A program made the position numbers and the translations under genes. From Nemertoderma westbladi (taxonomy: Eukaryota > Animalia > Xenacoelomorpha), in contig JAUCBJ010008665.1 of assembly GCA_032718475.1 (NCBI GenBank), positions 1 to 64,000 of the forward strand: DNA of 64,000 nt, given 5' to 3'. The notes below the pieces were generated by a model that was not told where the DNA came from, ran no database searches, and saw only the letters and a program-made list of their open reading frames with translations. Below are positions 5,401 to 58,329 of this stretch, one piece after another (the stretch's first letter is position 1; each line of letters begins with the position of its first letter).

Positions 5401-8400
5401 TCCCATGTTAGTCCATCCTTCCATATACTGCGCATATAAATGCGGGCTTGCAGTATCACTGGACTGATGAATCCTAATGGATCGAACAATCGGCTCAACT
5501 TTGACAAGCATGATCTCTTTGTCAGTGTGTTCTCTTGACTGTCCAGTCTCACTTTCACTCGGAAGTTGTCTGTGTTTGGGTCCCAAAAGAGCCCCAACAC
5601 CTTAGTCGTCGGTAGTGGTTCGAACTCTAGGTCTATGTCACCACCTCCACGCTCAGTCGTCCCGAATGAGTCTACTAATTCGGCACTGTTTGAGGCGAAT
5701 TTGGTGAGGTTAAAACCTCCGCCCGCTAAGCAGTCCCGTAATTGATGTGCTACTGTTGTAGCACGTTCTACTGTGTCGCAACTTTGTAATCCGTCGTCTA
5801 CGTAAAAGTCACGTTCTACGATTTTAATTATCTCTGGGTCATATAGATGCTTCTGATCTCTAGCGGCCTGCTTTAGGGCATACATCGTGCAATTTGGGCT
5901 GTCTCTGGCACCGAAAACGCGAACTTGCATTTGGTAAGTCGCTGGTGGTAGACTTAAGTCTCCTTCCGGATACCAGAGGAACCGCAAACTGTCTCTGTCT
6001 CGCTCTAACGCTTTCACTTGGTGAAACATCGCTTCAACGTCGCAAGTAAAGGCTACTTGACGCTGACGGAAGCGCATAATCACCCCCATAAGATAATTAT
6101 TCATGTTTGGTCCATCCATCAACTCACTATTGAGGGACATTCCCTCAAACAGAGCCGCACAGTCGTTGACTACGCGTACTTTGTCTGGTTTGTCGGGGTG
6201 TCTCACATAGTGATGTGGCAAGTAATAGGTTTGGTCAGTCACTATCTCCGGGTTAGTCATTCGGATAGCGTATCCTTTAGTCAAATACGTCTCCATCTGA
6301 GTGTTGTACTGCAGATGGGCTTTCTCGTCCTTTAATAGACGTTGCCGTATTGAGTGTAGACGTCTCAAGGCTAGTGGATAGTTGTTTATAAGTTTAGGAC
6401 TTTGGCTACGCCATAACATCCCCACCTCATAATGTCCGTCTTTCGTCTGGCGGATAGTATCTTCCATGATCTTCAGAGATTGTTTCTCCTGTTCCGACAT
6501 ACAAGGTTCGTAGCTACCAGGTTCAGCTGTATCTTGTTCTAACCACCTGATAGTCTTCTCCGTTAATTCTTTGTCCAATGCGGCTTGTTCCATTTGATGA
6601 TTTCTCAACGCGTCATCATCGATATCGACGGGCACCGTTGAGGTTATTGGGGTAGGTAGACTCGCAAGCCTATCATCTGTCGTCGATGGAATCTCTAGCT
6701 GACTCGTCTTCTCCCCAAGTTCTAAACTCACCTGGTGGGTTAGCTGCTCCTTGTGACTTATCATACTAGTTACACGTCTGTCATGTTTTGTCGACTGTAG
6801 TGTAGTATGGTTCACGTCGTGTGAAAAGGAATGAATTGAATTTGTAGTTAATAAACTACATGTACTCTGTACATCGTCTTCCTCGTCACTTACGTCTAGT
6901 GTGCGCACAGGCGCTCGAGTATACCACCCTATCGGCGTTCTGCAGGCGTATGCGTTTCCCGCTACGACTGCCGATGGTCTGGTTTCCCACACCTGATGTA
7001 GGTTGAATTGGTCTGTCCCGATCAGCATTGCTACCGATCTATAATTGACAGGACATTCGGGTACACCAAGGTGTCTGAAATACTTACGGTCCTCTAGAGA
7101 TTGTTCCGGCACTGGACCTAATAGGTTACTAAAGTCCTTCGTGGCCGCAAAGGTTAGATCTTTAAAGGGTAACAAAGACCTCTCCCTCTCGCTGTGTTGC
7201 GATTTCGGAAGAAGAGAGTCTAAGTCCAACTTAACTCGTGTCACTGGTATTGCACGCTGTCCGTGCATACTACTTACAGTATAACTGACGCGCTTACCTT
7301 GTTTGAGATCCGTCACGACGTCAGCTATCTTTTCGTCCACGTAGCTATGAGATGAGGCTGAATCTAGAATCGCGTAGATTCTTTTGCTCCCTTTTGTGCC
7401 AGTAACCTTAATCGGAATTACACTGAATCCCTTCAGTTGGTCAGTAGTCAGAAGCGCGATCGACGGTTGTTCGTCTCCATTGGAATATTCGTCGTCGTCT
7501 TCTAACTCCTCGTCCGACGATCCGGATTGTTCTGAGAAGCAATCCTCAATATGGGTCACGAAGGTTGGAGTCGTTTTCGATTCTCGTTTTCGGTAGGCCG
7601 CATCACATCTCGCTGCTGCTTCCGGGTGTTCCCTGGCGAAGCGTTTTGTCGGCGTGTGGCTGTCTGTGTGGAGCAGACCGTCGTGGTTGCGTCCACAGGA
7701 TGGACAAGTGTCGGTATTTGGGCAATCTTTACGGACGTGTCCGTGTCGCGTACACCGCCAACAAGAGTCCAATGGCCGTATTTGCAGCCGTCGTTCTTCC
7801 GAGTTCAACTCGCGAAATTGTCGAAAACCTCGTAACTTGTGACCGATATACCGCTTGCCTAAATGCTCACAGTATTGGCAGCCGCTGAAGTCGGTACTAA
7901 GTTGTTGTCTCGTCTGTTTTGTCCCAATGGGCGCAGATACCCTACTACCGTCCGAGAATTGTCGTGATTCCGTCGGTGTGGCGTAAGTGGCCGTCTTAGT
8001 GGATGTTGTCTGGGGTTTTTGTCGGTTGGAGGATGGCAATGTGATCCCTTCTGCCACGATGTGCTGGTCGGTGTAGTTAGATCGAGTTTCTACTACCGCC
8101 TCCCTGGATATTAAAAGGTACACATCTTCTAATTTTAAGAATCCTCCCCGCTCTTCTCGCTGGTATTCGACCTTCCTCCACTCCCGACGAAGTCGATGGT
8201 GGAGTCGTCCTATTATCTTTAATAGGACTGTAGGGGTATTCCCGTAATCAAGTTGTCCAATTGATCTTAAGGTAGTGATAGCGTTCTTGATCTCGTCAGC
8301 TAGTTTTAGTAAGTCGACGGGTTTAGTGATAGCCCCTCCCTTACAGAGTTCCTCTATTACTGACCTGGCCATGCTCACTGTACCTCCGTATATCGAAGTT

Positions 8401-11006
8401 AAACGATCGTACGCTAGTTTGAAAGCGTCCGGTACACCGACGAAAGTCTCCGCCAAACGTTTAGGTTCTCCTGACAACGTTTGGAGCAGGTAATTGAACT
8501 TCTCCCGTGATGTAAAGGCGCACACGGCGATCTGGGATTCGATATAGTCTACGAAAGTATGCCAGTGTTTTGAGCTACCGGAAAACTTCGGTGGTTGTTG
8601 TACCGGCAATCCTTGTCTGGCTGCGAATTTCGCTATCTCTTCGGCAACGTTCAGAGTTTCGCGTCCTTGGTTGGTAATCTGGTTGATATCCCTTCTTGGC
8701 GCTTTTCCCTGATACGATGTGGGGTTTGAAGGTACCGGTCTTTGTGGTTCCTTCGGGTGTCTATTGTGTTCGAATTCGGAATTTCTCGAACTGTCGGTGT
8801 AACCTTCCTCCAGACGCTCTTCAATCCGGGCCAACTTGTTGACAATGTCGGCGAATTGTTGTGTACTGATTGCGTCCGTTGGTTGTAACGCCTTTTGTGT
8901 TGGTGTATTCTGTGGAGGATTGTCGATAAATGAATTATCCGAACGCTCACGTTTACATTTGTCGGCCGCTCCTGTTCTAAATACCTCGCGTTCCGGGTAA
9001 TCCGACTCGCTCGAAGTACTACTGTCACCTGGATACGGTGGTCGACGCGCTCGAGTCCGTTGCGCCGTTCGAATCCTAACATTCCGTTTCGGAACATCGT
9101 CTACTGGTTTCCGTTGTTCGGTAGGCTCGCAGGTCTTCCTCGAAGTCGTAGATTGCGATGTAAACTGATTAAACGGTCGCGTATCCACTGGTCTCCGTTG
9201 TTCGGTAGGCTCACAAGTCTTCCTCGAAGTCGTAGATTGCGATGTAAACTGAACCGGTGGTCGAGTGACAGCGTTTGAATCTAAAGGCCTTGTAGGCCTA
9301 AACGTCATTGGGTAAGCGTAGTGTGTAACGGGTTTTGGCGTCAGAGGTGGACTCACCTGTTTAGTCGTCAGTAATACAGGTTCGACTAATAAACTACTAC
9401 GATCTGTAATCGGTGGGTTACTTACCTTGACTTTCGGAATAGGCGACGACGTTGCTCTTGGCGGTGTAAACTCGTCCGGAATAACAAACCTGCGTTCCGT
9501 CGCACCATGGATAGGAGAAATGTTACTACTACCCGCAATCGAAACAGGTTCCTTAGTCGTAACTGGTGCAAACATATGAGTTACCTGTGGGAATCGTTGA
9601 CACAAGTCCTTTACTAATTGTCGTTCCCGTCCGGGTGCTCCTACGCTTCCTTCTTTCTTTCGTTCCTGAATTTGGCGATGTCTTACCTCTATCTGGTCCA
9701 AGTCATGTCCGTCTCGAGATCTCATCGATCGATCGCGGGCCTTTTGATCCAGATCTTCCTCGGCGTTCGCTAATTCTCTCGCCTTCTTCTCGAGTTCGAA
9801 ACGAAGTTTAACTTCTTTCTCGCGTTGTTCCGTTTGTTGTTGTTGCGCCTCGAGTTCCGCTTGTCGTATAGCTGACTGGGCCTTTATTTGCCGTGTCTTC
9901 ATCTCTGCTCTGGCTTCTAAAACTAACCGGTTTCTCTCTAACTCCGCCGCTGCCGCTGCCGCTTGTCGCTCTGACTCAGCCGCTGCCGCTGCTGCTGTTT
10001 GTTGCGCAATGTCCAACTCTAACTTTTCCATCTCGGCTGCTTCCAACTCGGCTTGTTCTTGCAGATGGGAGATTCTTGCTATATTTGCAACGCGTAGCTT
10101 CTCTTCCTCTACTGCTGCTTGTAGCATTAGAAGTTGAGTTTGTTCCTCCATTTCTCGTCGTTGTCGGTAGAATTCTTGCTGTTGTCGAGCAACTTCTGAC
10201 GTAACCATACTTCCCTCGCCAATCTCGCTACGAATACTCACCAACGATTGATCCAATATTCCCGGTGCCGATTCAATTTGTGCGAATGAAGTTTCCCTCG
10301 TAGCCTCCGGCACGGTTTCCCAATCTCCGACGTCCTCGCCGCACATGCGTAAGTGATCCGTCAGGTGTTTCAATTGTCCATCCAGTCGGTACAGTTCCTG
10401 TTCTTCCTCGGGTTGTAATAATTCGTCCGAAACTGACTCACCTAACAACTGGTCCGCTTGTTCCTGTTGTATCTGTCTAATCGTCGACTTAAACTGAATC
10501 AGTTTCTCTCTAGCGATCATTAGTTTCTCGAGGATTCTAAGTTGAGTATCCATGTCCTGTCTCTGTCTAGCTAGATCTTGTAGGCCAACTAGATTATCTA
10601 CGGACTTATATACTTTACTCTGTACTCTAACCTGGAGGGTGTAGAACTCGAATCGAGACATCGGAGCGGTCAACCCGTCTAATATGCGTTGGCCTTCTCC
10701 AATACTCCTGGTAATATGCGCCATGTAACCACCGACGCTTCTAACCACACTTTCTGTGCTTCCTGCTGAACTTACCATCTCCGTTTCCCTATATCTAGGT
10801 TGCGGAACAGTTAGAAAGTCCTCGGTCCTGCCGTCACCTCGTACTACGGCATCCGGTACTCCCGTTGGATGTACTGGTGACGCACACGGTGTAGGTTCGG
10901 TAGGCTCGCGAGTCTTCCCCTGTTGTTCTTCCGCTGCTGACTTATCCGCGTCACATGAGTCATAGTCGGTTTGTGTATTCTTCGTATAGTCTTGTTTGTC
11001 ACTCAT
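2424..11006 (-). CDS. BEL/Pao LTR retrotransposon gag-pol polyprotein (2860 aa, uninterrupted)
   Basis: Domains occur in BEL order: coiled coil; gag (PPKFSG..W..F); zinc knuckles (CWRCTRHGHVRKDC, CPSCGRNH); protease ILDSASSHSY; RT (YYLPHH, KVRVVND, DVEAMFHQV, FYVDD); Pao RNase H (LHCFSDAS, PRAELQAA, NPADIASRG); integrase (HLHLKH..CIIC, GIDCFGP, SDQGTNF, GGVWERL). Confidence 0.96.
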   Translation of the reverse strand: MSDKQDYTKNTQTDYDSCDADKSAAEEQQGKTREPTEPTPCASPVHPTGVPDAVVRGDGRTEDFLTVPQPRYRETEMVSSAGSTESVVRSVGGYMAHITRSIGEGQRILDGLTAPMSRFEFYTLQVRVQSKVYKSVDNLVGLQDLARQRQDMDTQLRILEKLMIAREKLIQFKSTIRQIQQEQADQLLGESVSDELLQPEEEQELYRLDGQLKHLTDHLRMCGEDVGDWETVPEATRETSFAQIESAPGILDQSLVSIRSEIGEGSMVTSEVARQQQEFYRQRREMEEQTQLLMLQAAVEEEKLRVANIARISHLQEQAELEAAEMEKLELDIAQQTAAAAAAESERQAAAAAAELERNRLVLEARAEMKTRQIKAQSAIRQAELEAQQQQTEQREKEVKLRFELEKKARELANAEEDLDQKARDRSMRSRDGHDLDQIEVRHRQIQERKKEGSVGAPGRERQLVKDLCQRFPQVTHMFAPVTTKEPVSIAGSSNISPIHGATERRFVIPDEFTPPRATSSPIPKVKVSNPPITDRSSLLVEPVLLTTKQVSPPLTPKPVTHYAYPMTFRPTRPLDSNAVTRPPVQFTSQSTTSRKTCEPTEQRRPVDTRPFNQFTSQSTTSRKTCEPTEQRKPVDDVPKRNVRIRTAQRTRARRPPYPGDSSTSSESDYPEREVFRTGAADKCKRERSDNSFIDNPPQNTPTQKALQPTDAISTQQFADIVNKLARIEERLEEGYTDSSRNSEFEHNRHPKEPQRPVPSNPTSYQGKAPRRDINQITNQGRETLNVAEEIAKFAARQGLPVQQPPKFSGSSKHWHTFVDYIESQIAVCAFTSREKFNYLLQTLSGEPKRLAETFVGVPDAFKLAYDRLTSIYGGTVSMARSVIEELCKGGAITKPVDLLKLADEIKNAITTLRSIGQLDYGNTPTVLLKIIGRLHHRLRREWRKVEYQREERGGFLKLEDVYLLISREAVVETRSNYTDQHIVAEGITLPSSNRQKPQTTSTKTATYATPTESRQFSDGSRVSAPIGTKQTRQQLSTDFSGCQYCEHLGKRYIGHKLRGFRQFRELNSEERRLQIRPLDSCWRCTRHGHVRKDCPNTDTCPSCGRNHDGLLHTDSHTPTKRFAREHPEAAARCDAAYRKRESKTTPTFVTHIEDCFSEQSGSSDEELEDDDEYSNGDEQPSIALLTTDQLKGFSVIPIKVTGTKGSKRIYAILDSASSHSYVDEKIADVVTDLKQGKRVSYTVSSMHGQRAIPVTRVKLDLDSLLPKSQHSERERSLLPFKDLTFAATKDFSNLLGPVPEQSLEDRKYFRHLGVPECPVNYRSVAMLIGTDQFNLHQVWETRPSAVVAGNAYACRTPIGWYTRAPVRTLDVSDEEDDVQSTCSLLTTNSIHSFSHDVNHTTLQSTKHDRRVTSMISHKEQLTHQVSLELGEKTSQLEIPSTTDDRLASLPTPITSTVPVDIDDDALRNHQMEQAALDKELTEKTIRWLEQDTAEPGSYEPCMSEQEKQSLKIMEDTIRQTKDGHYEVGMLWRSQSPKLINNYPLALRRLHSIRQRLLKDEKAHLQYNTQMETYLTKGYAIRMTNPEIVTDQTYYLPHHYVRHPDKPDKVRVVNDCAALFEGMSLNSELMDGPNMNNYLMGVIMRFRQRQVAFTCDVEAMFHQVKALERDRDSLRFLWYPEGDLSLPPATYQMQVRVFGARDSPNCTMYALKQAARDQKHLYDPEIIKIVERDFYVDDGLQSCDTVERATTVAHQLRDCLAGGGFNLTKFASNSAELVDSFGTTERGGGDIDLEFEPLPTTKVLGLFWDPNTDNFRVKVRLDSQENTLTKRSCLSKLSRLFDPLGFISPVILQARIYMRSIWKDGLTWDEPISSDQVDLWKTWEAELSSLEDYSIPRVYFPLQSTFPDNLELHCFSDASDNGFGVAAYLRRQVESDEFDVSLITSKAKTMPTKYMTTPRAELQAATLSTTIVNLIQTELQSSLQIFYWTDATLVLFYINNDTLEFKTFVANRRAEILDRSIKEDWRHCPGPQNPADIASRGMMPEEFCKPENKEFWQHGPQFLQKSTQDWPPLYDNKSNTIPKDAEIKKPKKGKTKKKTTAAKLKKKPKAKWKDITSKVKRGRLASLSTPDISPDGQPDTLPDGQPDILPDASNTLTNSKAAVSLLERPSIDKQPDTLPDVSPDTLLDSRLDILSETSQNVLPDISNVLTNSKAAVSLLERPCIDKLPILTHLSNHKHGETSCITDVGSTYANVNTGVTLRSRDIPNLQPMVRPGINVGRKISLPKPADPIEFKPPLTIDLQSTDDQGKKTKKDKLLVDPDGSTVNKGIPTGGPVGPSSNSKPSKISIDLPDDVTNTHVDRIVNLTDSWTNACRKLAWIVRFVQYVKGKRDFTRRLTLAEIDRCEIKLIRHYQLRYFAREFTSINQGQPIKSSPILSWSPIIYNGLICHKSRLQNIDFNTNFRYPIIIPQHHELQRAMILDAHLHLKHAGRHHCLSYLRTRFVLIRPSKALSSVTRTCIICKKVHSRIGTQEMSELPQARLQAFRPPFTETGIDCFGPIHTKRGRILVKRWGLIFTCMSSRAVHIERVMDLSTNAFILALRRFIARRGLVKCLYSDQGTNFVGARNEIARAFKKLDHDQISNELQPHKIVWKFNPPDSPWRGGVWERLIRSIKTAMAKVIPVNHILTDDQLTTLFVEIEAILNTRPIVLVPDDKQSQFALTPAHLLMQAPTTLTPISIPIESDSYGRKAWKITQLLANKFWEIWQNHYLPSISARTNWYNNTRALKPGDHVLLAEVNLKRRFWITGVILATHPSMDGVTRTVTVRTIDGRTVDRPTQRLVLLEETRNESGDYKSPPNTSK

Positions 11007-11087
11007 TTCGGTAGTTGTAAGTCAAGTAAAGTGAGTGTCAATGTATCGAATTTACCGTATTTATATCTAAACGGTACTAATTACAGT

Positions 11088-11220
11088 CATATAAAATTAG
11101 CCTACCGGCCGATTTTATAGCAGATGGATAAAATTAGCCTAAACGGCCAATTTTACAGCAAATAAATGTCACGGAATAAGTATATAATAAAATTAGCCTA
11201 GCGGCCAATTTTATAACAAA
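11088..11220. repeat. Three imperfect ~55-bp repeats (ATAAAATTAGCCTA..CGGCC.ATTTTA) in the BEL 5' leader
   Basis: Seen directly near 11091, 11128 and 11187. Confidence 0.7.
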
Positions 11221-13534
11221 TAAATCGGATAACGATATGCGTTATCAAAAGGTAAATTAAATACAATAATTACGGACTAATTCAGCAATGAACAAAGAAA
11301 TCATACGGAATGCATAAATACTTGAGACAGTGGAACCCACAATAATTTTAACTAATACGGTAATGCCTAACTTATTTATGCAACTTTTCGAACTCACCCA
11401 CTCCAATAATTCTCCAGAAAAACAGATTCCCAGATACAAACCGAACGTGAACCTTTCCGTTTCCAGCGTTGCGGACGAAACGCGATTTTCTCAACCAAAG
11501 TTGTTGAGTTATCTATCTCCCAAACTTGCTAAACACGGTCTTGCTCCCGTTACAGTCTAGAAATGAGTTCTGAATCCTGAAAAACAAAAGAGTTAGGTTT
11601 TACTTTACGAAAAATTTTGTACCGGTACAATATGGTATTTAAACCCTTTTAAACACCGGTATTCAATTCCAAAATATTTTACACGCGGTTCAAATCAAAT
11701 TTTATTTCAAAAAATTAGCACTTAGCTAATCAAATATAAATTTTTACCTCAAAATACAGAATTTTCAAATAACTTTAGTCCTACCGAACCGTAGTTCAGT
11801 AAAACATATTCCTACTAATTTAGGAAATATGTTAAAATAATCATATTCCTACTAATTGAAGAGACAGCAACAATACCTGCAATATCCTACTGTAAAGTTT
11901 GTGAATCAAATCATAAATCCGACCTTCTCACCAAAACAGTAAACTCTAAGTAAGCGAATATATTGCAGTATCGATCTCTTATAACCGGTGAGGCAGAAAA
12001 CAGTCTACGAGCAGACAAACTTCGATAAAACAAAATCCCGCGCAGCGAATCCTAAAATCAGGCTGACTCACTGACGGACTAAGGGGCTCGTATACTTTGC
12101 CGCGGTGTGATTTATATGGTTGGGCAAAGGGACGCTAGCTAGGTACAGGCAGAGATTTGGAGATGTCTAACTAGCGAGCAAAGTGCAGTAAGGACGAAAG
12201 TTAATTTTATATATTTTGAGGTGTAAATAATTTCTAACGCGCGTGTGTTAATTCTGAACGGTCAAAAGCAGTTTTGCTCCTTCACATATATAATTACTGG
12301 GTACGGTGTGCATTTTACGAATATTCTAATTTTATAACTTGTAGGTCCAATACTCACGAATGATAAGGTTCCTTCCCCTCTTGCGTATTTCCAGGACTCA
12401 AATTCAGGCATAGGGTTAATGCTACGCCCAGAATTCGGCAATTTTAGGTACCAGGTCCCTGATACTAAGAAGAGATGTGTTAGTTTACTACTGTAGGCGT
12501 ACAGTTACTAATAGCTATCCTGGCTCCTATCTAGAATTTTAGTCACCCAGGTAGTCCGGGTAACTTCCTATCAGGGCGTTGGCGGGGACACGGTAGATGT
12601 TAGTATCCCTAATAGCCTCAATTTATTTGCGCCTAGTGTAAACTGCCCTACCGCCTGAACGGTACAATCCTAATTCAGGTGAAAACACAATAACCCTCCT
12701 AGCCTACAAGTTCTGATGTAATGGACACCGTTGTACGGCAAATAGTCACAGACGCACCTGTACTTAGCAAGAGTTAAGCGTACAGTTTGCTGCACCCTAA
12801 CCAATGTGTATGCCTTGTACCGGTGTGCCTACGTCCTATCTGCGTACTAGTATCTGCCTGCGCTCTCTCCCTCCCCCGTAGGAATATGAAGGTCTACTGC
12901 GGTTTTTCCTGAATCAAGACAGTACAGTCCCTATGATGTAATTTTAGGCTTACAGCGTGTCACTACGTCTACCTTTTGATCTTTTGGTCTTATACTTAGG
13001 TAGCAAGGATCGAACGCTGTCTAACCTTTCAGGCGATGGGCGAATAACTCTAGATGGTATTGCGGGTTGTCTCTCGTCTACATTCCCCCGATGTTCCCGT
13101 TCATTGCTGCGGCCCGATCTCTAGCCTGCCATCCTGTCCCTTAGTTGGGTTCACCGTGGTGAATCATAGTAAAACAGATAGGAAAAGCAGATTAGCGATA
13201 ATTCTGACTTTATTACAGAAGATATAATTATAATACAATGTAATCTGAAAACTAATGACAGAATAAACAAATATCAGATAACTGAATAACTGAGAGAATA
13301 ATAACTAATGAACAAATCGCACCTTTTTATAGCAAATTTGTGCTGCAATCAATCGAGAAAATTCTCGATTGTTCTATAGGTTCTAACAGGGTTTTAAAGA
13401 TAGCTATTGGTCCAGCTAATATATAACTTGCACGACATTGGTTACAATCAAATAACTACAGTCTCATTGGCACAGACAAATGCAATTAATTTGTAGCGGT
13501 TAATTTAAATGAGTTGAAATTCTGCACAAAAAAT

Positions 13535-13614
13535 AATTCGCACTTACTAGGATTCGAACTCAATACCTACTACACATATAATTTCCAACGCTCTACCGAC
13601 TGAGCTACTGAACC
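13535..13614 (-). pseudogene. tRNA-derived Pol III-like sequence (tRNA pseudogene or SINE head)
   Basis: Minus strand reads GGTTCAGTAGCTCAGTCGGTAGAGCG (A box/D arm) ... GAGTTCGAATCC (B box), then a T run. The acceptor and anticodon stems do not pair, so it is not a functional tRNA. Confidence 0.65.
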
Positions 13615-14225
13615 ACTTGACCGATGGGTGTACAAATGATAGAACCAATACGAATGAGAACTCAAAGCAATCTTTACAAAGTTAATCCGAATAAAATAAA
13701 ATTTTGAAAATCCACGGCATTTAGGGAATATAATTCTATAGAGCCGCTTAACAACATATTGGATATTGGGTTCCGTTTTGGATTTCTCCTTACAGAAACT
13801 GAAGTTGCAATAACTTTGAGAGTGTGAATGGATTTTGATAAATTACGTCAAACATTTTCTACTTCGATGCTCTTTCAACACATTTAATAAAATTTAAGAA
13901 ATTCCACCAAAAATATTTATTTTACTTTTTTCGCCGGGAAAAAAGTAAAATCCGTCAAAAATCAATTAATACTATCCTATGGGTTACATTTTTCACCAAG
14001 GGAAAAAGTGCTCCCGATTTTAAGGTTTATTCGAGGCTTATTCCTATATCACAAATCTATCAGCAATACTCCATCATTTAAATAAATATAACATTACGAC
14101 TTGGAAAGCTGAGCTATGAACATTTTTTATCTATTGCTTAAGTAGGGCCTATATACTATACATATTTTATTTTATAATTAGACTTTAAGTTATTTATATA
14201 CAATGGAGTTAATTGATCTTATTAG

Positions 14226-14386
14226 ATTCTACAAACCGCATCTGTAAACCAATTCCTGATGAAGACTCCCAACTCCCTCGGCTATCTCAGTTACTTACGG
14301 GTTTGGCACGACAATAGTGGGCACGGGGGTAGCGCTTCTTGGTTTCTCGAGAAAATTATTGTGGAGGATTTACAGACGAAGACCAG
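14226..14386 (+). CDS. Polycystin-1 family (PKD1-like) gene, exon encoding part of the PLAT/LH2 domain
   Basis: ag|ILQTASVNQFLMKTPNSLGYLSYLRVWHDNSGHGGSASWFLEKIIVEDLQTKT|gt. The RVWHDNSG..SWFL..I.V.DLQT pattern is typical of PKD1-family PLAT domains. The exon ends in phase 2. Confidence 0.9.
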
Positions 14387-14504
14387 GTCGGTATAGTGAG
14401 TTAATGTGTTTGTACAAAACTTCCTTCTCAGGTCGTCATGGGTCTTTGTTTTAACCAAAATTAAAGTTTGTAGTTTATCAATAACTTTATTATCTAACTT
14501 ACGG

Positions 14505-17155
14505 TGTATTATTTTATTATTTAGGTATTACTTTATTATCTATATATTGTTTTATTATATATTTATTATTTTATTATTTAGGTATTACTTTATTATCTAT
14601 GTATTGTTTTATTATATATTTATGATTTTATTATTTAGGTTTTACTTTATTATCTATATATTGTTTTATTATATATTTATTATTTTATTATTTAGGTATT
14701 ACTTTATTATCTATATATTGTTTTATTATATATTTATTATTTTATTATTTAGGTATTACTTTATTATCTATGTATTGTTATATTTTATATTTATTATTTT
14801 ATTATTTAGGTATTACTTTATTATCTATATATTGTTTTATTATATATTTATGATTATATTATTTAGGTATTACTTTATTATCTATGTATTGTTTTATTAT
14901 ATATTTATGATTTTATTATTTAGGTATTACTTTATTATCTATGTATTGTTTTATTATATATTTATTATTTTATTATTTAGGTATTACTTTATTATCTATA
15001 TATTGTTTTATTATATATTTATTATTTTATTATTTAGGTATTACTTTATTATCTATATATTGTTTTATTATATATTTATTATTTTATTATTTAGGTATTA
15101 CTTTATTATCTATATATTGTTTTATTATATATTTATTATTTTATTATTTAGGTATTACTTTATTATCTATATATTGTTTTATTATATATTTATTATTTTA
15201 TTATTTAGGTATTACTTTATTATCTATGTATTGTTATATTATATATTTATTATTTTATTATTTAGGTATTACTTTATTATCTATATATTGTTTTATTATA
15301 TATTTATGATTTTATTATTTAGGTATTACTTTATTATCTATGTATTGTTTTATTATATATTTATTATTTTATTATTTAGGTATTACTTTATTATCTATAT
15401 ATTGTTTTATTATATATTTATTATTTTATTATTTAGGTATTACTTTATTATCTATATATTGTTTTATTATATATTTATTATTTTATTATTTAGGTATTAC
15501 TTTATTATCTATGTATTGTTTTATTATATATTTATGATTTTATTATTTAGGTATTACTTTATTATCTATATATTGTTTTATTATATATTTATGATTTTAT
15601 TATTTAGGTATTACTTTATTATCTATATATTGTTTTATTATATATTTATTATTTTATTATTTAGGTATTACTTTATTATCTATGTATTGTTATATTATAT
15701 ATTTATTATTTTATTATTTAGGTATTACTTTATTATCTATATATTGTTTTATTATATATTTATGATTATATTATTTAGGTATTACTTTATTATCTATGTA
15801 TTGTTTTATTATATATTTATGATTTTATTATTTAGGTATTACTTTATTATCTATGTATTGTTTTATTATATATTTATTATTTTATTATTTAGGTATTACT
15901 TTATTATCTATATATTGTTTTATTATATATTTATTATTTTATTATTTAGGTATTACTTTATTATCTATATATTGTTTTATTATATATTTATTATTTTATT
16001 ATTTAGGTATTACTTTATTATCTATGTATTGTTTTATTATATATTTATGATTTTATTATTTAGGTATTACTTTATTATCTATATATTGTTTTATTATATA
16101 TTTATTATTTTATTATTTAGGTATTACTTTATTATCTATATATTGTTTTATTATATATTTATTATTTTATTATTTAGGTATTACTTTATTATCTATGTAT
16201 TGTTATATTATATATTTATTATTTTATTATTTAGGTATTACTTTATTATCTATATATTGTTTTATTATATATTTATGATTATATTATTTAGGTATTACTT
16301 TATTATCTATGTATTGTTTTATTATATATTTATGATTTTATTATTTAGGTATTACTTTATTATCTATGTATTGTTTTATTATATATTTATTATTTTATTA
16401 TTTAGGTATTACTTTATTATCTATATATTGTTTTATTATATATTTATTATTTTATTATTTAGGTATTACTTTATTATCTATATATTGTTTTATTATATAT
16501 TTATTATTTTATTATTTAGGTATTACTTTATTATCTATGTATTGTTTTATTATATATTTATGATTTTATTATTTAGGTATTACTTTATTATCTATATATT
16601 GTTTTATTATATATTTATTATTTTATTATTTAGGTATTACTTTATTATCTATATATTGTTTTATTATATATTTATTATTTTATTATTTAGGTATTACTTT
16701 ATTATCTATATATTGTTTTATTATATATTTATTATTTTATTATTTAGGTATTACTTTATTATCTATATATTGTTTTATTATATATTTATTATTTTATTAT
16801 TTAGGTATTACTTTATTATCTATGTATTGTTATATTATATATTTATTATTTTATTATTTAGGTATTACTTTATTATCTATATATTGTTTTATTATATATT
16901 TATGATTTTATTATTTAGGTATTACTTTATTATCTATGTATTGTTTTATTATATATTTATTATTTTATTATTTAGGTATTACTTTATTATCTATATATTG
17001 TTTTATTATATATTTATTATTTTATTATTTAGGTATTACTTTATTATCTATATATTGTTTTATTATATATTTATTATTTTATTATTTAGGTATTACTTTA
17101 TTATCTATATATTGTTTTATTATATATTTATTATTTTATTATTTAGGTATTACTT
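14505..17155 (+). repeat. 57-bp AT-rich intronic tandem array; each unit contains the splice acceptor and the first 9 nt of the next exon
   Basis: Unit GTATTACTTTATTATCTATATATTGTTTTATTATATATTTATTATTTTATTATTTAG. First AG|G at 14524/14525 and last at 17146/17147, which is exactly 46 x 57. Confidence 0.97.
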
Positions 17156-17267
17156 CCTCTGTAACAATTGGTTGGCTGTAGAACGCGGGGACGGCCGTAT
17201 TGACCGAACTATTAGCGTCGCCAACAATTCCGATAAACTCGAATTCCGAAACTTATTTAATTCTTCT
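17147..17267 (+). CDS. PKD1-like exon (end of PLAT domain)
   Basis: ag|(R)YYFLCNNWLAVERGDGRIDRTISVANNSDKLEFRNLFNSS|gt. It has the F.C..WLAV..GDG motif, and its phase matches the preceding exon. Confidence 0.9.
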
Positions 17268-17399
17268 GTTAGTTTCATCTGTTTTGTTATTATTATTAAT
17301 TATAGTTTGTATAGATGAACTACTATTAATCTATTTATTTTATGGATGAACCACTACCTCTATATATTTTATAGATGAACCAATCTATTTATTTTATAG

Positions 17400-17582
17400 A
17401 TGAACCACGACCTATCCGATGGACATCTATTTATCTCTGTGGCTGCCCGCCCCACTCGGAGTAACTTCACCCGCATTCAACGTCTCACTGCTTGCTTTGC
17501 TCTTCTCTCCCTCAACATGATCACCAGCGCTATGTTTTTCGGGAAAGGGGAAGAATTGGAGGGATCTTCGCCACTTGTTGAG
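17400..17582 (+). CDS. PKD1-like exon (post-PLAT loop and TM segment)
   Basis: MNHDLSDGHLFISVAARPTRSNFTRIQRLTACFALLSLNMITSAMFF matches the PKD1-family D.H.W.S...RP..S.FTR.QR motif. Flanked by ttttatag and gtgaga. Confidence 0.92.
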
Positions 17583-19080
17583 GTGAGAATTCAGAGTTCA
17601 AGTAAACGTTATTTATATTTTAATATTTAATTCAATGTAAAATAAAGTTGTTTCATTAGGATATTCGTCTCAATGTGATAACATTTATGATGTGAGAATA
17701 CTATGAGGTTGATCAAGAAAACAACCTACAGTACCTTTGCAAATAAATATTTCAAAGAATTAGAGGTTGAAGTGAAAATAGTTGACTTAGGTTAATAAAT
17801 TCAAATTTTATTTTTTACTATTTTCCAGACTGCAATTTTATCTTTCCGAATCTGAAAACAAATTTTCATTGCCCTAATACTTTTTAGAATAATTCATTTT
17901 TCGTAGACTTCATTAATTGTGTTTTTCTTGTCGGTGATCCTGTTTCTGATGACTGCAAGTAAACAACGGGATTAGACTGTATGTATGTCAGTTTGTCTGT
18001 CAGTCGGTCATTTCGAAAAAATTTCAGAAAGCACACTACCTATCTAAAATGCAGACATTCAATGCAATATCATTCACACAGACACAACGCACACAATTTC
18101 AAAAACGAATATTTGAAATAAATTCAACGAGATGAAAACATTTATAGCAACAATTTTAGCTAGGTTGTGGGTTTTTATAAATATTGATGAACATCTGAGA
18201 GACGGGCAGAATGTAAACGGATTGTGACATCAGTTGAACGGACAAACAGTATAGATTCTGTCAAACGTAAGACAAACATCATAAATGGAATACCAGACCA
18301 GGAAAACTCCATAACGAAAATTTCAGTTATGGAGTGTTTATATATTATTTGACTGACAGACATACTGATAGACTGAGTGATAGACTACCTATAAAAAGTT
18401 TATAAAATCATGAAAACTGACATTAATTGGAATTGAAAGCACGCAAGGAAAGCCCCACATAGCGGAAAAAATAGTTTCCTTTTAATTTTGTTTTTATTTT
18501 ATAACTATCATTTTAAACAATTTTGGCTAGTATTTCTTGGAGAATGTTATGTAATATGATTCTGTTATGTAATACTGCATGATTTTTCTGAAGTACTGTA
18601 GGACATACTGTATATTTGAAATGTCCTAGATCAAACAATATTATTGTTGTAAAGCATAATTTTTGGAAGAATTTAACTAAAAAATTTAAATTTTGTTCGA
18701 GGATGCCTTTTTTTAAATAGCTTCTTTGAATTATTCCATCTAAAAGGTTTCTTATAATATAATCTCTGCTGTATGCCCCATCTGGGTGGGATATAGTTGT
18801 ACTGTAGCTTATATGATCAGGGAAACTTATGGACGTTGAATTTGAAACTATCGAAATTTATTGTTACGGTTGTGATAAAGTAATAGAGTGCTCAGTCCAA
18901 TTTACTCGAATTTCAGATTAAAAATAAATAATTCTATTTTATTATTTTTGCAATTTCTCGCAGATTTTACATTGAAGTTGAATTTTTTCAAATCTTATGG
19001 ATTTAATTAAATATCTCTAACGTGATTTCACTTATGTCGTCATTTTTAGTCTCTTTTTTTGTGTCATATAAATACAGTTC

Positions 19081-19413
19081 GTGGGGCCTTCGCGCAGCAC
19101 TTAGTGAGCAAAGCCTTTAGCATATGGGCACCATTAGCGAGTTGTCTGCCGTTAGTCAGAAGTCTTCAACACAATACTCGTCCTCCTCCTGTGCATAGTT
19201 GCGTTCGTTCGTTTTTCACCAAACTTCAGATTCTTTCTAAACTTTTGACTGACTACATACGTACCAAGTTTCGTTTAATTTCATCAAGGAATAACCGAGT
19301 TATTAGCGATCAAAAATTTACGATGACAGACGACGACAGACGACGACGACGACAGACAACTCGCCAATGGCACCCATATGCTAAGGTTTCGCTCACTTCG
19401 TGGCTCGCCCCAC
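19081..19413 (+). mobile_element. Short non-autonomous element (HINE/DINE-like or MITE) in an intron
   Basis: GTGGGGC...GCCCCAC ends, an internal TACCAAGTTTC motif and a (GAC/GACA)n microsatellite. The class is inferred only. Confidence 0.35.
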
Positions 19414-19438
19414 ATGCCTGCGATGTTTGTTTTTATAG

Positions 19439-19597
19439 ATTGGACCAATCAGACTGAGCCTACTCTCTATACAGATATCTATTCAATCTTGTGTTATCTC
19501 ATTTATACCAACTCTTCTTATTGTTGAGCTGTTCAGAAAAGCTGCACCTAAAGACTATAACAGAAGAGAAGGAGAATACACTGCGTGTACTGATAAT
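19439..19597 (+). CDS. PKD1-like exon (TM segment)
   Basis: ag|IGPIRLSLLSIQISIQSCVISFIPTLLIVELFRKAAPK...|gtgagt, resembling the PKD1L GP...P..LLIV..FR segment. In phase. Confidence 0.85.
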
Positions 19598-20078
19598 GTG
19601 AGTCGATGTAATCATTACTGTATCATAGCATTGATAACACATACTGACTGACTGACTGACCAGTGAATGACTGATTCCTCTGATTGGGTCAATACTCTTT
19701 GCACCAAAGCGAAAGTGGGGCCACTGAAGTATGTATAGTTAGTGTCTTTCAACATTTTTGTTTAGTTTTGCAGTACCATTTTAATATTGTTGTCCATCCA
19801 GTGCTTCTTTGATTTATCCTATTCATATTATATTTTTTTTTATTTTAATGTACAATTACTACTAATAACTATTACTGTACTTACTGTAGTAATCTTAGTA
19901 TTTTAGTATTTTTAATGTGCTGAAGGATGATTAGCGGAAATCAACTTCAAGATTACCTTTAAGTTGATTTCAAAGTCAATCTCAAAATTTTTAGAAATAC
20001 GCTGCCCACTTAACTAATTTTGTATTATGTTGCGATGTATACTGTAGGTGAGTAATAGATTGATTTTCGTTGTTTTAG

Positions 20079-20248
20079 AATATTCATGAGGTACCTATGA
20101 AGCCTGTTGGATGTTACCGCCGTTTTGTTGCTAAGTTCTGTTCCCCTGGAAACGGGAACAGATACTGGCCCCATTGGGTGATCTACATAGCTTACGGGTT
20201 GTCTCTGGTATCTATAGTCGCTTCCCTTGGTTTCACTGTTCTATACAG
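20079..20248 (+). CDS. PKD1-like exon (TM segment)
   Basis: ag|NIHEV...RYWPHWVIYIAYGLSLVSIVASLGFTVLY|gt, resembling the P.W..Y.....L.......S..FT.LY segment. Later exons were not found in the window. Confidence 0.85.
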
Positions 20249-21554
20249 GTTGGTCTACTGGCACGGTGCGCCTTCTGGCGTGTTCGCTCCAATCATACTT
20301 AGCATTGTGGATTTCCAAATTGGGTTAAAGCTACCAGAATGCATGATAAGCTGCTTAGTTTTTGAGGAATTAAAGGTTGGAATAATCCAAACCATTGCAG
20401 CTTCTCTAGCAAAAGGAACTTTAAACACTTTAAACACAATCCAATTAGTAAACAATTCAGAGAATTATTGAACACATAGAGATACAGTAAGTAAATATGG
20501 GAAGCAAACAAAGAAACATACACGTAGAAAATATATCTGGTAAACAACAAAACCAAAAAGAAGAAAAAAAAAACAATCTAAATACAGTAAAGAGTACTTG
20601 GTATTATACTTCGAACGAAGGATGCAACATAATACAAATGAATAGTAATATATGCCTGATATAGGAGCTACTGTAATTCTGTTCAATCAAAGTGTGTATT
20701 TCGTATACAGCTTAGGTTGATCGTTGCAAGCCATGAGACCACAAACAGTGGAACAGTCCAGATCCCCATCTCGGGAGATACACGGGTATATGGTCTAATT
20801 AATAATTATTAGCTAAAAATCGGAAATTAAACGATAGGCCCTATACCAAATATTATTACCACCACCTACACCAACAGGCATTGTCTTCTGAATAATTTTT
20901 ACCAGTTCCAACTGCTCTTAATTTTTTTAAATATTTCCCCCAGATTTCTCGTCAACCCTTTGTTTGATTTATTTGTTATACATTTCTTAGCTTCTTTGCA
21001 GTCACTCATGTGGCATCCTTTGATCTTGAAGCAATCCTCCTCGCATCCGACACACTGTGTGAAAGCAATGGTTATTAAATTAAATTATTGTTAAAAAAAC
21101 CGATCATAAAATTAATAAAGAATATTATGTATTGGCGACAGTTTTTGGGCGGGTTTGGTGCTAAGAAGATCAACTCTTCTCGCTAGGTGGTATTATTTCT
21201 TAGAAGAACACTGGTCTTTGTACTCCTTACCCATTTGTGTGTCATGTATGGAGATTTGTTAGAAAATTAAATGTCGCGAACATAGTTCTAATTTTGGGGG
21301 AACTTTGATCCAATTTGGGGGGAACTTTCATCAATTATGATGATAAATTTTTTCTATTAACTCCTCACCCCACTGCCTTGAAGTCGCCATGTTGCAAAAC
21401 CTATTTCAATTTAATTTTATTGTAATGGGGAACTGATTGTTATTAAACGCATAAATACGCATCTTATGGTTCCTGTAAGTAAACTATATATTGTATTAGT
21501 AGGTATTAATATATGTTTAATATGTATATGTATTAGTATATTAATATATTTTCG

Positions 21555-23890
21555 TTCACCACAAAGGGTGATCTTTCACAGTAAACCCTTCCACTCTGTT
21601 TCCCAAATGAATGCCTGTTCACCACCATGGGTGATCGTCAACAGTAAAGCCTTCCACTCTGTTTCCTAAAGGAATGCCTGTTCACCACCGTGGGTGAACT
21701 TCCACAGTAAACCCTTCCCACTCTGTTTCCTAAAGGAATGCCTATTCACCACAATGGTGATCTTCCACAGTAAACCCTTCCAGTCTGTTACCTAAAGGAA
21801 TGCCTGTTCACCACCATGGGTGATCGTCAACAGTAAACCCTCCCCCTATGTTTCCTAAAGGAATGCCTGTTCACCACCGTGGGTGATCTTCCACAGTAAA
21901 CCCTTCCACTCTGTTTCCTAAAGGAATGGCTGTTCACCACCGTGGGTGATCTTCCACAGTAAACCCTTCCACTCTGTTTCCTAAAGGAATGGCTGTTCAC
22001 CACCGTGGGTGATCTTCCACAGTAAACCCTTCCACTCTGTTTCCTAAAGGAATGCCTGTTCACCGCCACGGGCAATCTTCCACAGTAAACCCTTCCACTC
22101 TGTTTCCTAAAGGAATGCCTGTTCACCGCCACGGGCAATCTTCCACATTAAACCCTTCCACTCTGTTTCCTAAAGGAATGCCTGTTCACCGCCACGGGCA
22201 ATCTTCCACATTGAACCCTTCCACTCTGTTTCCTAAAGGAATGCCTGTTCACCGCCACGGGCAATCTTCCACAATTTACCCTTCCACTCTGTTTCCTAAA
22301 GGAATGGCTGTTCACCGCCAAGGGCGATCTTCCACATTAAACCCTTCCACTCTGTTTCCTATAGGAATGCCTGTTCACCACCATGGGTGATCTTCCACAG
22401 TAAACCCTTCCCCTCTGTTTCCTAAAGGAATGCCTGTTCAACACCATGGGTGATCTTCCACATTAAACCCTTCCACTTTGTTTCCTAAAGGAATGCATAT
22501 TCACCACAATGGGTGATCATCCACAGTAAACCCTTCCACTCTGTTTCCTAAAGGAATGCCTGTTCACCACAATGGGCGATCATCCACAGTAAACCCTTCC
22601 ACTCAGTTCCCTAAAGGAATGCCTGTTCACCACCATGGGTGATCTTCCACAGTAAACCCTTCCCCTCTGTTTCCTAAAGGAATGCCTGTTCAACACCATG
22701 GGTGATCTTCCACATTAAACCCTTCCACTTTGTTTCCTAAAGGAATGCATATTCACCACAATGGGTGATCATCCACAGTAAACCCTTCCACTTTGTTTCC
22801 TAAAGGAATGCATATTCACCACAATGGGTGATCATCCACAGTAAACCCTTCCACTCAGTTCCCTAAAGGAATGCCTGTTCACCATCATGGGTGATCTCCC
22901 ACAGTAAACCCTTCCACTCTGTTTCCTAAAGGAATGCCTGTTCACCACAATGGGCGATCATCCACAGTAAACCCTTCCACTCTGTTTCCTAAAGGAATGC
23001 CTGTTCATCACCATGGTTGATCTTCAACAGTAAACCCTTCCACTCTGTTTCCTAAAGGAATGCATATTCACCACAATGGGTGATCTTCCACATTAAACCC
23101 TTCCACTTTGTTTCCTAAAGGAATGCCTGTTCACCACAATGGGCGATCATCCACAGTAAACCCTTCCACTCTGTTTCCTAAAGGAATGCCTGTTCATCAC
23201 CATGGTTGATCTTCAACAGTAAACCCTTCCACTCTGTATCCTAAAGGAATGCTTGTTAACCACCATTGGTGATCTTCCACAGTAAACCCTTCCACTCTGT
23301 TTCCTAAAGTAATGTCTGTTCACCACCATGGTTGATCTTCCACATTAAACCCTACCACTCTGTTTCCTAAAGGAATGCCTGTTCATCACTATGGTTGATC
23401 TTCAACAGTAAACCCTTCCACACTGTTTCCTAAAGGAATGCTTGTTCACCACCATGGGTGATCTTCCACAGTAAACCCTTCCACTCTGTTTCCTAAAGGA
23501 ATGCCTGTTCACCACCATGGATGATCTTCCACAGTAAACCAACCCTTCCACTCTGTTTCCTAAAGGAATGCCTGTTCACCACCATGGATGATTTTCCACA
23601 GTAATCCCTTCCACTCTGTTTCTTAAAGGAATGCCTGTTCACCATCATGGGTGATCTTCCACAGTAAACTCTTCCACTATGTTTCCTAAAGGAATGCCTG
23701 TTCACCATCATGGGTGATCTTCCACAGTAAACTCTTCCACTATGTTTCCTAAAGGAATGCCTGTTCACCACCATGGGTGATCTTCCACAGTAAACTCTTC
23801 CACTATGTTTCCTAAAGGAATGCCTGTTCACCACCATGCATGATCTTCCACAGTAAACCAACCCTTCCACTCTGTTTCCTAAAGTAATGC
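21555..23890. repeat. 63-bp minisatellite, about 37 copies
   Basis: Unit GTTCACCACCATGGGTGATCTTCCACAGTAAACCCTTCCACTCTGTTTCCTAAAGGAATGCCT; overlapping ORFs show 21-aa periodicity. Confidence 0.96.
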
Positions 23891-25323: not shown

Positions 25324-25959
25324 TTAACGCTCTCCGTACATTAGTACAATAAGGACCGCAACCAACTTCAACGAAGGAGCGACAATGTTGGAATCGCTCT
25401 CCGTAGCCAATTGGGTTGTAGTCGACTCCATTGTGGTCGTCGATTCTGTGACTCCTTCGTTCCATTGAATTTCGGAACACGGACCATCGAAACAACAGCG
25501 AAACTGGCAAACTTCGTATGTTGAGGAGAGATCAACTTTCAGCCAGTTGATTATAGCTAACGCTCTAACCGTGGTATCATCTCGATGCTTGTGACCCTCC
25601 TCAGGAAGAACAACTGTGAGCATGTAGGTGCATCCGCCTTCAATGAGGGGGACGCAACTCGAGTAGTGCTTGCAGACGTAATTACCTATCTCTATTGTGA
25701 TCTCCGCGTCATATTCCTGGGAATATCCTGTGAGCTTGACGGAAGTAACTGAGCATTTAGAACAGTTGTGTTCTACTGCATTACCCATTTGAACGATGTT
25801 GTTACTCTTTACAAACCTGTCTACCTTTTCTTCATAATATTTTTGTAAGTCAGCGTTGTCAGAAGTCAAATTCCAACTCCGTCCCTTAGGACAGGTTATG
25901 TTGAGAATAGCCATGGTTGTGTGAACTAAACTTATTAACAGAACGGATGTGATATGCAT
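25324..25959 (-). CDS. Secreted, probably GPI-anchored cysteine-rich protein, Ly6/uPAR (three-finger)-like, 211 aa
   Basis: N-terminal signal peptide, 10 Cys ending in CCFDGPCS (compare CCxxxxCN), a Thr/Ser-rich stalk and a hydrophobic C terminus. Single clean ORF. Confidence 0.7.
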   Translation of the reverse strand: MHITSVLLISLVHTTMAILNITCPKGRSWNLTSDNADLQKYYEEKVDRFVKSNNIVQMGNAVEHNCSKCSVTSVKLTGYSQEYDAEITIEIGNYVCKHYSSCVPLIEGGCTYMLTVVLPEEGHKHRDDTTVRALAIINWLKVDLSSTYEVCQFRCCFDGPCSEIQWNEGVTESTTTMESTTTQLATESDSNIVAPSLKLVAVLIVLMYGER

Positions 25960-26084
25960 TATATATAGAACTGCCTCAGGTAGATGTTAATTTAAATTCT
26001 ACAACAACCAAAATTATTAATGAAGCTTATTTGTTTTGGTTTATATTTTAATTTAGTTTACAATTTTGTTCATTAGTAATTTCT

Positions 26085-52122: not shown

Positions 52123-52243
52123 GTAACTAAATCGGTGTTGCTTCCCCAGCTAAACTCAGTAACTAAATCCGAGCTGCCGCCCTAGTTAAACTCTAAGAAC
52201 TACCGGTACAACCTAGCTAGCCGAATCATCAGCCACAAACGAG

Positions 52244-58175: not shown

Positions 58176-58329
58176 AAGGTGCGGGCAGAGGTGTTACCTG
58201 TCTCTTAGAAGGAGCACCTTAGAGCGGAGTTAGAGTGAAGTTTAGTCGTCCAAGTTTTGGACTGAGGGGGGTGGGATTGAGGGCGAGACGCCCTTCCCAC
58301 ACAAATAAAATAAAATAAAAAATAAAAAT

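What the first reader, a model, noticed from the sequence alone, without database searches (positions are those of the whole stretch)
14387..17155. Satellite made of 47 in-frame copies of a polycystin exon's 3' splice site
Seen: every 57-bp unit ends in a T-rich tract plus tttAG and restarts with GTATTACTT, which are the first 9 nt of the real exon at 17147. The spacing is exactly 46 x 57, a multiple of 3, and the exon frame is stop-free throughout (RYYFIIYILFYYIFIILLF per unit). The only consensus branch-like CTAAC (about 14494-14498) lies before the FIRST acceptor, not the last. Joining the upstream exon (ending AG) to any copy regenerates AG|GTATTA, a possible donor. Inference: (a) variable acceptor choice could insert 0-46 hydrophobic 19-aa units into the PLAT domain, (b) the array could be removed by recursive (ratchet) splicing, or (c) exon definition picks only the last AG. 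Any of these makes this a splice-site-amplifying VNTR.
Basis: partly seen in the sequence, partly recalled or inferred. Interest (0 to 1): 0.88.

Follow-up and report, generated by a model that had tools for sequence, protein, structure and literature searches.

The report
Splice-acceptor "mirage" repeat in polycystin intron
The end of an intron and the first nine bases of the next exon of an animal polycystin-like gene are repeated 46 times head to tail, but the one spliced transcript seen skips every extra copy, so this is likely a harmless repeat of a kind already described in lancelets ("mirage").

Summary
The array is real: 47 TTTAG|GT acceptors exactly 57 nt apart (14525-17147), in the PLAT-domain intron of a polycystin-1-like gene. 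Contig depth in DNA run X1 matches the assembled copy number. Run X4, whose 2,179-nt contig is spliced cDNA, joins 14386 directly to the last acceptor (17147) with no unit inserted, and no X4 contig lay on the unit. The open frame is not a signal: 20,000 of 20,000 dinucleotide shuffles are also stop-free, and another haplotype adds an out-of-frame acceptor and changes the CTAAC adenine to G. The next intron holds a small acceptor repeat that cannot regenerate a donor, and there too the last copy is used. Best reading: a 'mirage' minisatellite (boundary-spanning repeat described in amphioxus; related cases in human CBS and F7), likely removed in one step by exon definition. Rare +1/+2-unit isoforms or a two-step recursive route through AG|GT are not excluded, since only one cDNA contig and no raw RNA reads were available. 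This scan found the same kind of array before on other DNA (68 notes, at least 9 genomes). New member of a known kind; interest low.

The parts
14226..14386 (+). Exon of a polycystin-1-like gene, middle of the PLAT domain; ends in AG
   Evidence: Pfam PLAT, polycystin-1 in PDB; covered with 0 differences by the X4 cDNA contig
14387..14392 (+). Used 5' splice site GTCGGT
   Evidence: X4 contig leaves the genome here; its loose end before 17145 is the end of this exon
14387..14524 (+). Unique 138-nt 5' part of the intron, likely the pre-expansion intron; 14484-14524 is a degenerate first copy of the unit
   Evidence: Shares 13 nt and the last 18 nt with the unit but has a different middle; differs between samples
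14494..14498 (+). CTAAC, adenine at -28 from the first acceptor; likely the old branch site, not fixed in the species
   Evidence: A14497G in X2 and X3
14525..17146 (+). Array of 46 x 57-bp units, each GT...AG: 9 nt of exon start plus 48 nt of T-rich intron end; 10% G+C, 62% T; 8 variants in repeated blocks
   Evidence: depth check
17145..17146 (+). The 47th and last AG, the acceptor used
   Evidence: X4 contig
17147..17267 (+). 121-nt exon, end of the PLAT domain
   Evidence: X4 contig; tblastn with homologues
17315..17399 (+). Second, small acceptor repeat in the next intron: exon-start copies at 17315, 17346 (AG changed to GG) and 17375 before the used acceptor at 17400
   Evidence: TRF 17330-17413; X4 joint 17267 to 17400, GT..AG
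17400..17582 (+). 183-nt exon
   Evidence: X4 contig; homologues
19439..19597 (+). Next exon; start shown by cDNA, end predicted
   Evidence: X4 loose end after 17582; homologues; open frame
20079..20248 (+). Predicted further exon
   Evidence: Homologues and profile hit E 2.5e-6; no cDNA laid here

Best explanation
A 57-bp piece spanning an intron end and the start of the next polycystin exon is repeated 46 times inside that intron, and the one spliced transcript seen uses only the last acceptor, so the array is likely a silent 'mirage' minisatellite removed with the intron. Inferred origin: a tandem duplication across the acceptor, seeded by a short ACTT match between the exon start and the intron, then amplified and homogenised by slippage or unequal exchange, leaving the old branch site at the 5' edge and the real exon at the 3' edge. 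Inferred choice of site: exon definition; the donor at 17268 pairs with the nearest upstream AG to give a 121-nt exon of 43% G+C, whereas earlier AGs would give exons of 178 to 2,743 nt padded with 10% G+C, U-rich sequence. The length of 57 and the open frame are likely by-products of composition; at most they make rare mis-splices escape nonsense-mediated decay.
For: Direct junction 14386-17147 in X4 with 0 inserted bases and 0 differences; X4 depth 0 on the unit. X1 contigs run unbroken from intron through exon into the array at both ends, so no second copy of these exons with other introns is seen. Next intron: last of four tandem exon-start copies is used, and these read AG|AT, so no donor can be regenerated. 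Open frame expected by composition; 15 of 171 single changes would make a stop, so 6 variant sites without one has P 0.58. X3 haplotype adds a 17-nt insertion with a further AG|GT 19 nt before the first acceptor, out of frame, and X2 and X3 change the CTAAC adenine. Homologues keep the PLAT spacing across the junction: 29 residues in 36 of 48 with the motif (150 fetched), 26-27 in 8, 29 in the spliced product here, none at 48. Mean pairwise difference 2.3%, repeated blocks of 9-10 units, degenerate edge copy. Same anatomy and silence reported for amphioxus mirages (PMC3087553, PMC3902484) and CBS 844ins68 (PMC2630376).
Against: One cDNA contig from one run; contigs drop rare isoforms, and a 10% G+C insert may be lost in library preparation. 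X4 is another sample (S3), so its allele is not shown to carry the array, though both DNA samples do and X4 matches the window allele at 14378. A mature mRNA cannot tell one-step from recursive removal. CTAAC at -28 from the first AG has about a 1% chance per 21-nt window (3 in 6,052 nt; CTRAY 12%), so the first acceptor looks competent. In the next intron the skipped AG copies are out of frame (85 and 25 nt), so decay could hide their use. Four homologues had longer spacings (52-78) that I did not inspect. Exon definition itself was not tested.
Confidence: 0.76

Rival explanations
1. Leaky in-frame alternative acceptors: the nearest one or two upstream AGs are used often enough to give +19 or +38 residue hydrophobic inserts in PLAT, so array state would tune the amount of working polycystin.
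For: All 47 AGs intact and in frame; the two acceptors checked at the 3' end carry a TTTAT with its A at -28, the same distance as CTAAC (the yUnAy motif is recalled). In human 6-16 and CBS intron 13 donor arrays the two nearest pseudo-sites are used (as summarised in PMC1557585).
Against: No X4 contig on the unit at 90% likeness, at exon depth 52.7. Frame is not kept in the X3 haplotype. Insert has mean hydropathy 1.9 and no homologue shows such a spacing.
Confidence: 0.12
2. Recursive removal: the short first intron is spliced to the first AG using CTAAC, the regenerated CAG|GTATTA then acts as donor to the last AG (two steps) or walks the array (many steps), giving the same mRNA.
For: Each unit is GT...AG; regenerated site matches the donor consensus at 6 of 9 places; first AG has the best branch motif and is transcribed 2.6 kb earlier; the product is identical to the X4 junction.
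Against: +5 is T whereas 5 of 5 donors of this gene have G; the same junction is stable in the mature contig; branch A is lost in sample S2; the next intron picks its last copy with no GT available; ratchet points are described as strong, conserved donors in long introns (PMC8605326).
Confidence: 0.09
3. The array damages splicing in carriers, and the clean X4 transcript comes from an allele with few or no units.
For: X4 is a different sample with no genomic cover; unit depth in sample S2 is only 0.58-0.64 (X2) and 0.13-0.18 (X3) of that expected for 46 units.
Against: Both DNA samples carry the array joined to both flanks, on haplotypes that differ at 14378; X1 shows one allele at full length; X2 and X3 are one sample yet differ more than threefold, so the low depth points to library bias.
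Confidence: 0.03

Closest known systems
'Mirage' minisatellites of amphioxus (globin BflGb6/BflGb9, Adh3, troponin C, PGBD5); PMC3087553 and PMC3902484, passages read
   Same: Tandem copies of an intron 3' end plus exon 5' start (BflGb6), many keeping AG, homogenised inside with a divergent edge copy, and regular splicing undisturbed.
   Different: 46 units against 3-6 in BflGb6; unit 57 bp, 10% G+C, in frame, stop-free and bounded GT...AG; length instability is shown for amphioxus but not here; organism here not identified.
Human CBS 844ins68; PMC2630376, passages read
   Same: Duplicated intron 7/exon 8 junction; the more distal (exon-adjacent) site is strongly favoured and normal mRNA results.
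   Different: One extra copy of 68 bp, not 46.
Human donor-side boundary minisatellites: F7 intron 7 (37 bp x 5-9), 6-16, CBS intron 13, LMNB2, PDGF; PMC1557585, abstract and passages read
   Same: A splice site reiterated up to about 25 times; the exon-adjacent site is used alone or with the next two.
   Different: These repeat the 5' splice site; here the 3' site is repeated, and the used site is the last one transcribed.
Drosophila ratchet points (recursive splicing); PMC8605326, abstract and passages read
   Same: Juxtaposed acceptor and GT at every unit boundary.
   Different: Described as conserved, strong donors in long introns; here a young repeat whose GT lacks +5 G, with no intermediate seen.
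Intron gain by tandem duplication across AG|GT (Rogers model; mentioned in PMC3087553; PMC4974935 and PMC3443670 seen as search listings only)
   Same: Each unit begins GT and ends AG, so any block of units could form an intron.
   Different: The mRNA keeps no unit, so no new intron position has arisen.

Membership tests
Mirage minisatellite | Tandem repeat whose unit spans an intron-exon boundary | tested here: met
   Unit = 9 nt of exon start + 48 nt of intron end; boundary confirmed by cDNA
Mirage minisatellite | Many copies keep the splice signal | tested here: met
   47 of 47 positions keep TTTAG
Mirage minisatellite | Regular splicing not disturbed | tested here: met
   One X4 cDNA contig, direct junction, no unit-bearing contig; rare isoforms not excluded
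Mirage minisatellite | Concerted evolution inside, edge copy left out | tested here: met
   2.3% mean pairwise difference, repeated 9-10 unit blocks, degenerate first copy
Mirage minisatellite | Length differs between alleles or cells | tested here: inconclusive
   S2 depth 0.58-0.64 (X2) and 0.13-0.18 (X3) of expected, but the two runs are one sample; the 5' edge differs in sequence
Ratchet point / recursive splice site | Acceptor directly followed by a usable donor | tested here: inconclusive
   AG|GT present; 6 of 9 consensus match, no +5 G against 5 of 5 gene donors
Ratchet point / recursive splice site | Recursive intermediates or lariats | not testable with these tools
   Only contigs; no raw or nascent RNA reads listed
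Ratchet point / recursive splice site | Site conserved across species | not tested
   No genome of a related species was available; all listed runs are organism A
Coding VNTR (variable in-frame protein repeat) | Repeat units present in mature mRNA | tested here: not met
   0 units in the X4 contig; X4 depth 0 on the unit
Coding VNTR (variable in-frame protein repeat) | Open frame beyond chance or kept across alleles | tested here: not met
   20,000 of 20,000 dinucleotide shuffles open; out-of-frame extra acceptor in X3
Polycystin-1-like (PKD1/PKD1L) gene | PLAT domain followed by colinear polycystin membrane segments | tested here: met
   Pfam PLAT, PDB polycystin-1, colinear tblastn hits on five exons with homologues, two of which were scanned and carry GPS, PLAT and PKD_channel
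Polycystin-1-like (PKD1/PKD1L) gene | GPS motif and PKD channel domain in this gene | tested here: inconclusive
   No exon for the first half of PLAT or for the channel found in the window by profile search; the X4 contig runs on 173 nt upstream and 1,541 nt past 17582

The most novel reading that the evidence does not exclude
A self-excising acceptor satellite: because every unit is GT...AG and in frame, the spliceosome first takes the first AG at the old branch site and then re-splices from the regenerated CAG|GTATTA to the last AG, with incomplete steps leaving 19-residue hydrophobic inserts in PLAT, so that repeat length sets polycystin output. It would be recursive splicing created de novo by a minisatellite in a short intron.
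Probability: 0.1. Interest if true: 0.72.

Novelty: new member of a known kind. Interest (0 to 1): 0.24.

Why it matters
As it stands it is a clean, large example of a known repeat class, with a second small one in the next intron of the same gene. Its use is as a natural test piece: 47 near-identical acceptors whose mis-splices would all be in frame and so visible in mRNA, which allows scanning, exon definition and recursion to be told apart by long-read RNA. If recursion or a length-dependent ladder were shown, a repeat would have built a new splicing route and a tunable polycystin, which would be surprising.

Tried and rejected
No whole genome is held for this window, so no genome-wide count of such arrays was possible. 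No run on record as RNA was listed ('no RNA holder listed'); X4 was guessed as DNA and proved spliced on laying. Two word-index protein searches with single exons found nothing at E 0.001; the exhaustive search did (864 hits, best 150 fetched). The protein Atlas gave no answer. Copy-number variation from depth was tried and rejected as unreliable for S2. The array as a separate reading frame (972-codon ORF 14400-17318) was rejected: no Pfam hit for two units plus exon, no cDNA cover, open by composition. A nearby GTGAGT at 14396 as donor would create a stop and is not used in X4. Unit 16-mers occur nowhere else in the window. In one search the start of exon 19439 and both ends of exon 20079 were mis-set and corrected. 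Profile searches for further polycystin exons found only 20079-20248. Paper searches returned nothing; three papers were not held, so the original Adh3 mirage paper and the 6-16 paper are known to me only through citing papers. No earlier scan notes exist for this genome or for this exon.

Full report
Observation. The intron 14387-17146 (2,760 nt) holds 52 AG dinucleotides; 47 are TTTAG|GT sites at 14525+57k, and all 46 spacings are 57 nt. TRF gives period 57, 46.5 copies, 97% matches, no indels. The 46 units fall into 8 variants (22, 7, 5, 4, 3, 3, 1, 1 copies) that differ at 6 sites; 45 of 46 begin with the first 9 nt of the exon at 17147. The exon frame has no stop through the array. The one CTAAC lies at 14494-14498.

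Is the array real? No whole genome was held. Six runs of one organism were listed, none on record as RNA; four were laid as contigs on two stretches, 13700-14581 and 17072-17660. In X1, contigs with no differences run from unique sequence into the array at both ends (13923-14536 and 17126 onward) at depth 39.4 and 36.7. The two main unit contigs have depth 1,068.5 and 1,200, that is 27.1-29.1 and 30.5-32.7 times single copy, against 29.2 and 32.0 expected from the window's 31-mer counts. An assembly expansion is therefore unlikely, though X1 may be the source individual and the tool warns that depth is a poor copy measure. X2 and X3 (one other sample) also join the array to its flanks, but give 0.58-0.64 and 0.13-0.18 of the expected depth; because one sample gives two such different values, I draw no conclusion on length variation.

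The gene. Exon 14226-14386 matches PLAT (E 6.5e-6) and human polycystin-1 (E 2e-7). Homologues from the exhaustive search (150 fetched; 22 used as queries) hit exons at 14226, 17147, 17400, 19439 and 20079 in order; the two scanned carry GPS, PLAT and PKD channel domains. The spacing across the junction is 29 residues in 36 of the 48 homologues with the motif, 26-27 in 8 and 52-78 in 4 not inspected; it is 29 in the spliced product here and would be 48 with one unit. No exon for the first half of PLAT or for the channel was found in the window, which suggests very long flanking introns (inference).

What is spliced. Run X4 was guessed to be DNA but its 2,179-nt contig (depth 52.7) covers only exons, with no differences: 14224-14388 at record 2008-1844, 17145-17267 at 1847-1725 and 17400-17582 at 1724-1542, with a GT..AG joint from 17267 to 17400. 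The loose end before 17145 is the end of the upstream exon and the loose end after 17582 is the start of the exon at 19439. Record arithmetic puts 14386 at 1846 and 17147 at 1845: no base is inserted. It was the only X4 contig laid, of 1,901,655 records read, and X4 depth is 0 on the unit in both calls. So the main mRNA uses the last of 47 acceptors. Limits: one contig, rare isoforms dropped, a different sample whose array is not seen. X4 shares the window allele at 14378, where X2 and X3 differ, and the unbroken X1 contigs show no second copy of these exons with other introns.

Is the open frame meaningful? The consensus unit has no AA, no GA and no internal AG, so it can hold no stop except the acceptor's own TAG, which falls in another frame. 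20,000 of 20,000 dinucleotide shuffles with fixed ends are stop-free, as are 35% of mononucleotide shuffles; the consensus is open in 2 of 3 frames; 15 of 171 single changes would create a stop, so six variant sites without one has P 0.58. A length divisible by 3 is a one-in-three event. The X3 contig (depth 25.2, 1 contig) has a 17-nt insertion at the 5' edge that adds an AG|GT 19 nt before the first acceptor, out of frame. There is no sign of selection for coding.

Branch site and donor. The CTAAC adenine is at -28 from the first AG, about a 1% event per 21-nt window in nearby non-coding DNA (3 in 6,052 nt; CTRAY 12%), so it is probably the branch site of the old 138-nt intron. But it is G in both X2 (6 letters from a contig end) and X3 (64 letters from the end), the last two acceptors of the array have a TTTAT with A at the same -28 (motif recalled), and only 1 of 4 cDNA-supported acceptors has a YTRAY within 70 nt. 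The regenerated CAG|GTATTA matches a recalled 9-letter donor consensus at 6 places, within the 5-7 of the four real donors scored, so sequence alone does not exclude it; it lacks the +5 G of all 5 donors of this gene (three cDNA-supported, two predicted), and it persists unused in the mature contig. Ratchet points are described as strong, conserved donors in long introns with a cryptic exon (PMC8605326, abstract and passages).

An internal comparison. The next intron (132 nt) ends in four tandem copies of its own exon start, at 17315, 17346 (AG changed to GG), 17375 and 17400. X4 uses the last. These read AG|AT, so recursion is impossible; decay of frameshifted products could, however, hide use of the others. 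X2 and X3 show half depth at 17332-17371 (19.3 of 36.4; 14 of 24.3), a hint of a second allele there.

Mechanism. Shown: anatomy, copy number in X1, direct junction in X4. Inferred: origin by tandem duplication across the acceptor, with ACTT shared between the exon start and 14484-14487 as a likely seed, then turnover that left repeated blocks of 9-10 units, 2.3% mean divergence and a degenerate first copy; one-step removal by exon definition, since the last AG gives a 121-nt exon and the others 178-2,743 nt of mostly 10% G+C sequence. I put this at 0.76, meaningful leaky isoforms at 0.12, recursion at 0.09 and a damaging array with an array-free X4 allele at 0.03.

What is known. Earlier notes of this scan (68 findings in at least 9 genomes; unchecked AI notes) gave the name 'mirage', which I checked in print. 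PMC3087553 (passages) describes tandem duplications of an intron 3' end plus exon 5' part in amphioxus BflGb6, many with splice signals, not interfering with splicing, unstable in length and homogenised except at the edges; PMC3902484 (passage) adds Adh, troponin C and PGBD5. PMC2630376 (passages) reports that in CBS 844ins68 the duplicated intron 7/exon 8 junction is resolved to the distal site (the paper calls the sites donors; the title of the cited Romano 2002 paper calls them 3' splice sites). PMC1557585 (abstract and passages) covers donor-side arrays in F7, 6-16, CBS, LMNB2 and PDGF, where the exon-adjacent site is used alone or with the next two. PMC2812944 (passages) lists human repeats at exon-intron boundaries with alternative transcripts. 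The original Adh3 and 6-16 papers were not held.

Verdict. A real, large, in-frame mirage minisatellite in a polycystin-1-like gene, silent in the one transcript seen. New member of a known kind; interest 0.24. The bold reading, recursive removal and length-tuned inserts created by a repeat, stays open at about 0.1 and would deserve about 0.7.

Noticed in passing
window 17315-17399: A second, small acceptor repeat in the next intron of the same gene; the last copy is used, one copy has lost its AG, and sample S2 shows half depth here, hinting at a second allele.
   Followed up: yes
window 14226-20248: Only five polycystin exons were found in the 64 kb; the cDNA contig runs 173 nt further upstream and about 1.2 kb past the fifth exon, so the gene likely has introns of more than 14 kb upstream and tens of kb downstream, or short divergent exons were missed.
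   Followed up: partly
window 2424-11021 (-): Uninterrupted 2,865-codon Bel/Pao-type retrotransposon frame (Peptidase_A17, DUF1759, DUF5641, integrase), upstream of exon 14226 and probably inside the polycystin intron; no terminal repeats found within the window by blastn of 1-14300.
   Followed up: partly
window 21554-23890: 63-bp x 37 minisatellite; on the minus strand each unit holds an acceptor-like TTCCTTTAG|G, and one frame is open for long stretches. Whether it spans a splice site is unknown.
   Followed up: no
window 20680-21090 (-): Two short cysteine-rich frames that look like exons of a small gene on the opposite strand.
   Followed up: no
window 25324-25986 (-): 220-codon frame, cysteine-containing with a Thr-rich and hydrophobic end; no Pfam hit.
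   Followed up: partly
window 40282-44944 (-) and 52217-60004 (+): Further retroelement frames: RT, RNase H and integrase at 40282-43020 with a gag-like frame behind it; a second Pao-like element in pieces at 52-60 kb (by eye).
   Followed up: partly
window 13700-13970: High-copy dispersed repeat just upstream of exon 14226; summed contig depth up to about a thousandfold or more above single copy in all four runs.
   Followed up: no
window 38629-39186 and 48111-48469: The same 63-bp G-rich repeat occurs twice, each time beside reverse-transcriptase-like frames.
   Followed up: no
run X4: Listed as 'DNA?' but its contig skips GT..AG introns and has no intron cover, so it behaves as an RNA run.
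   Followed up: yes
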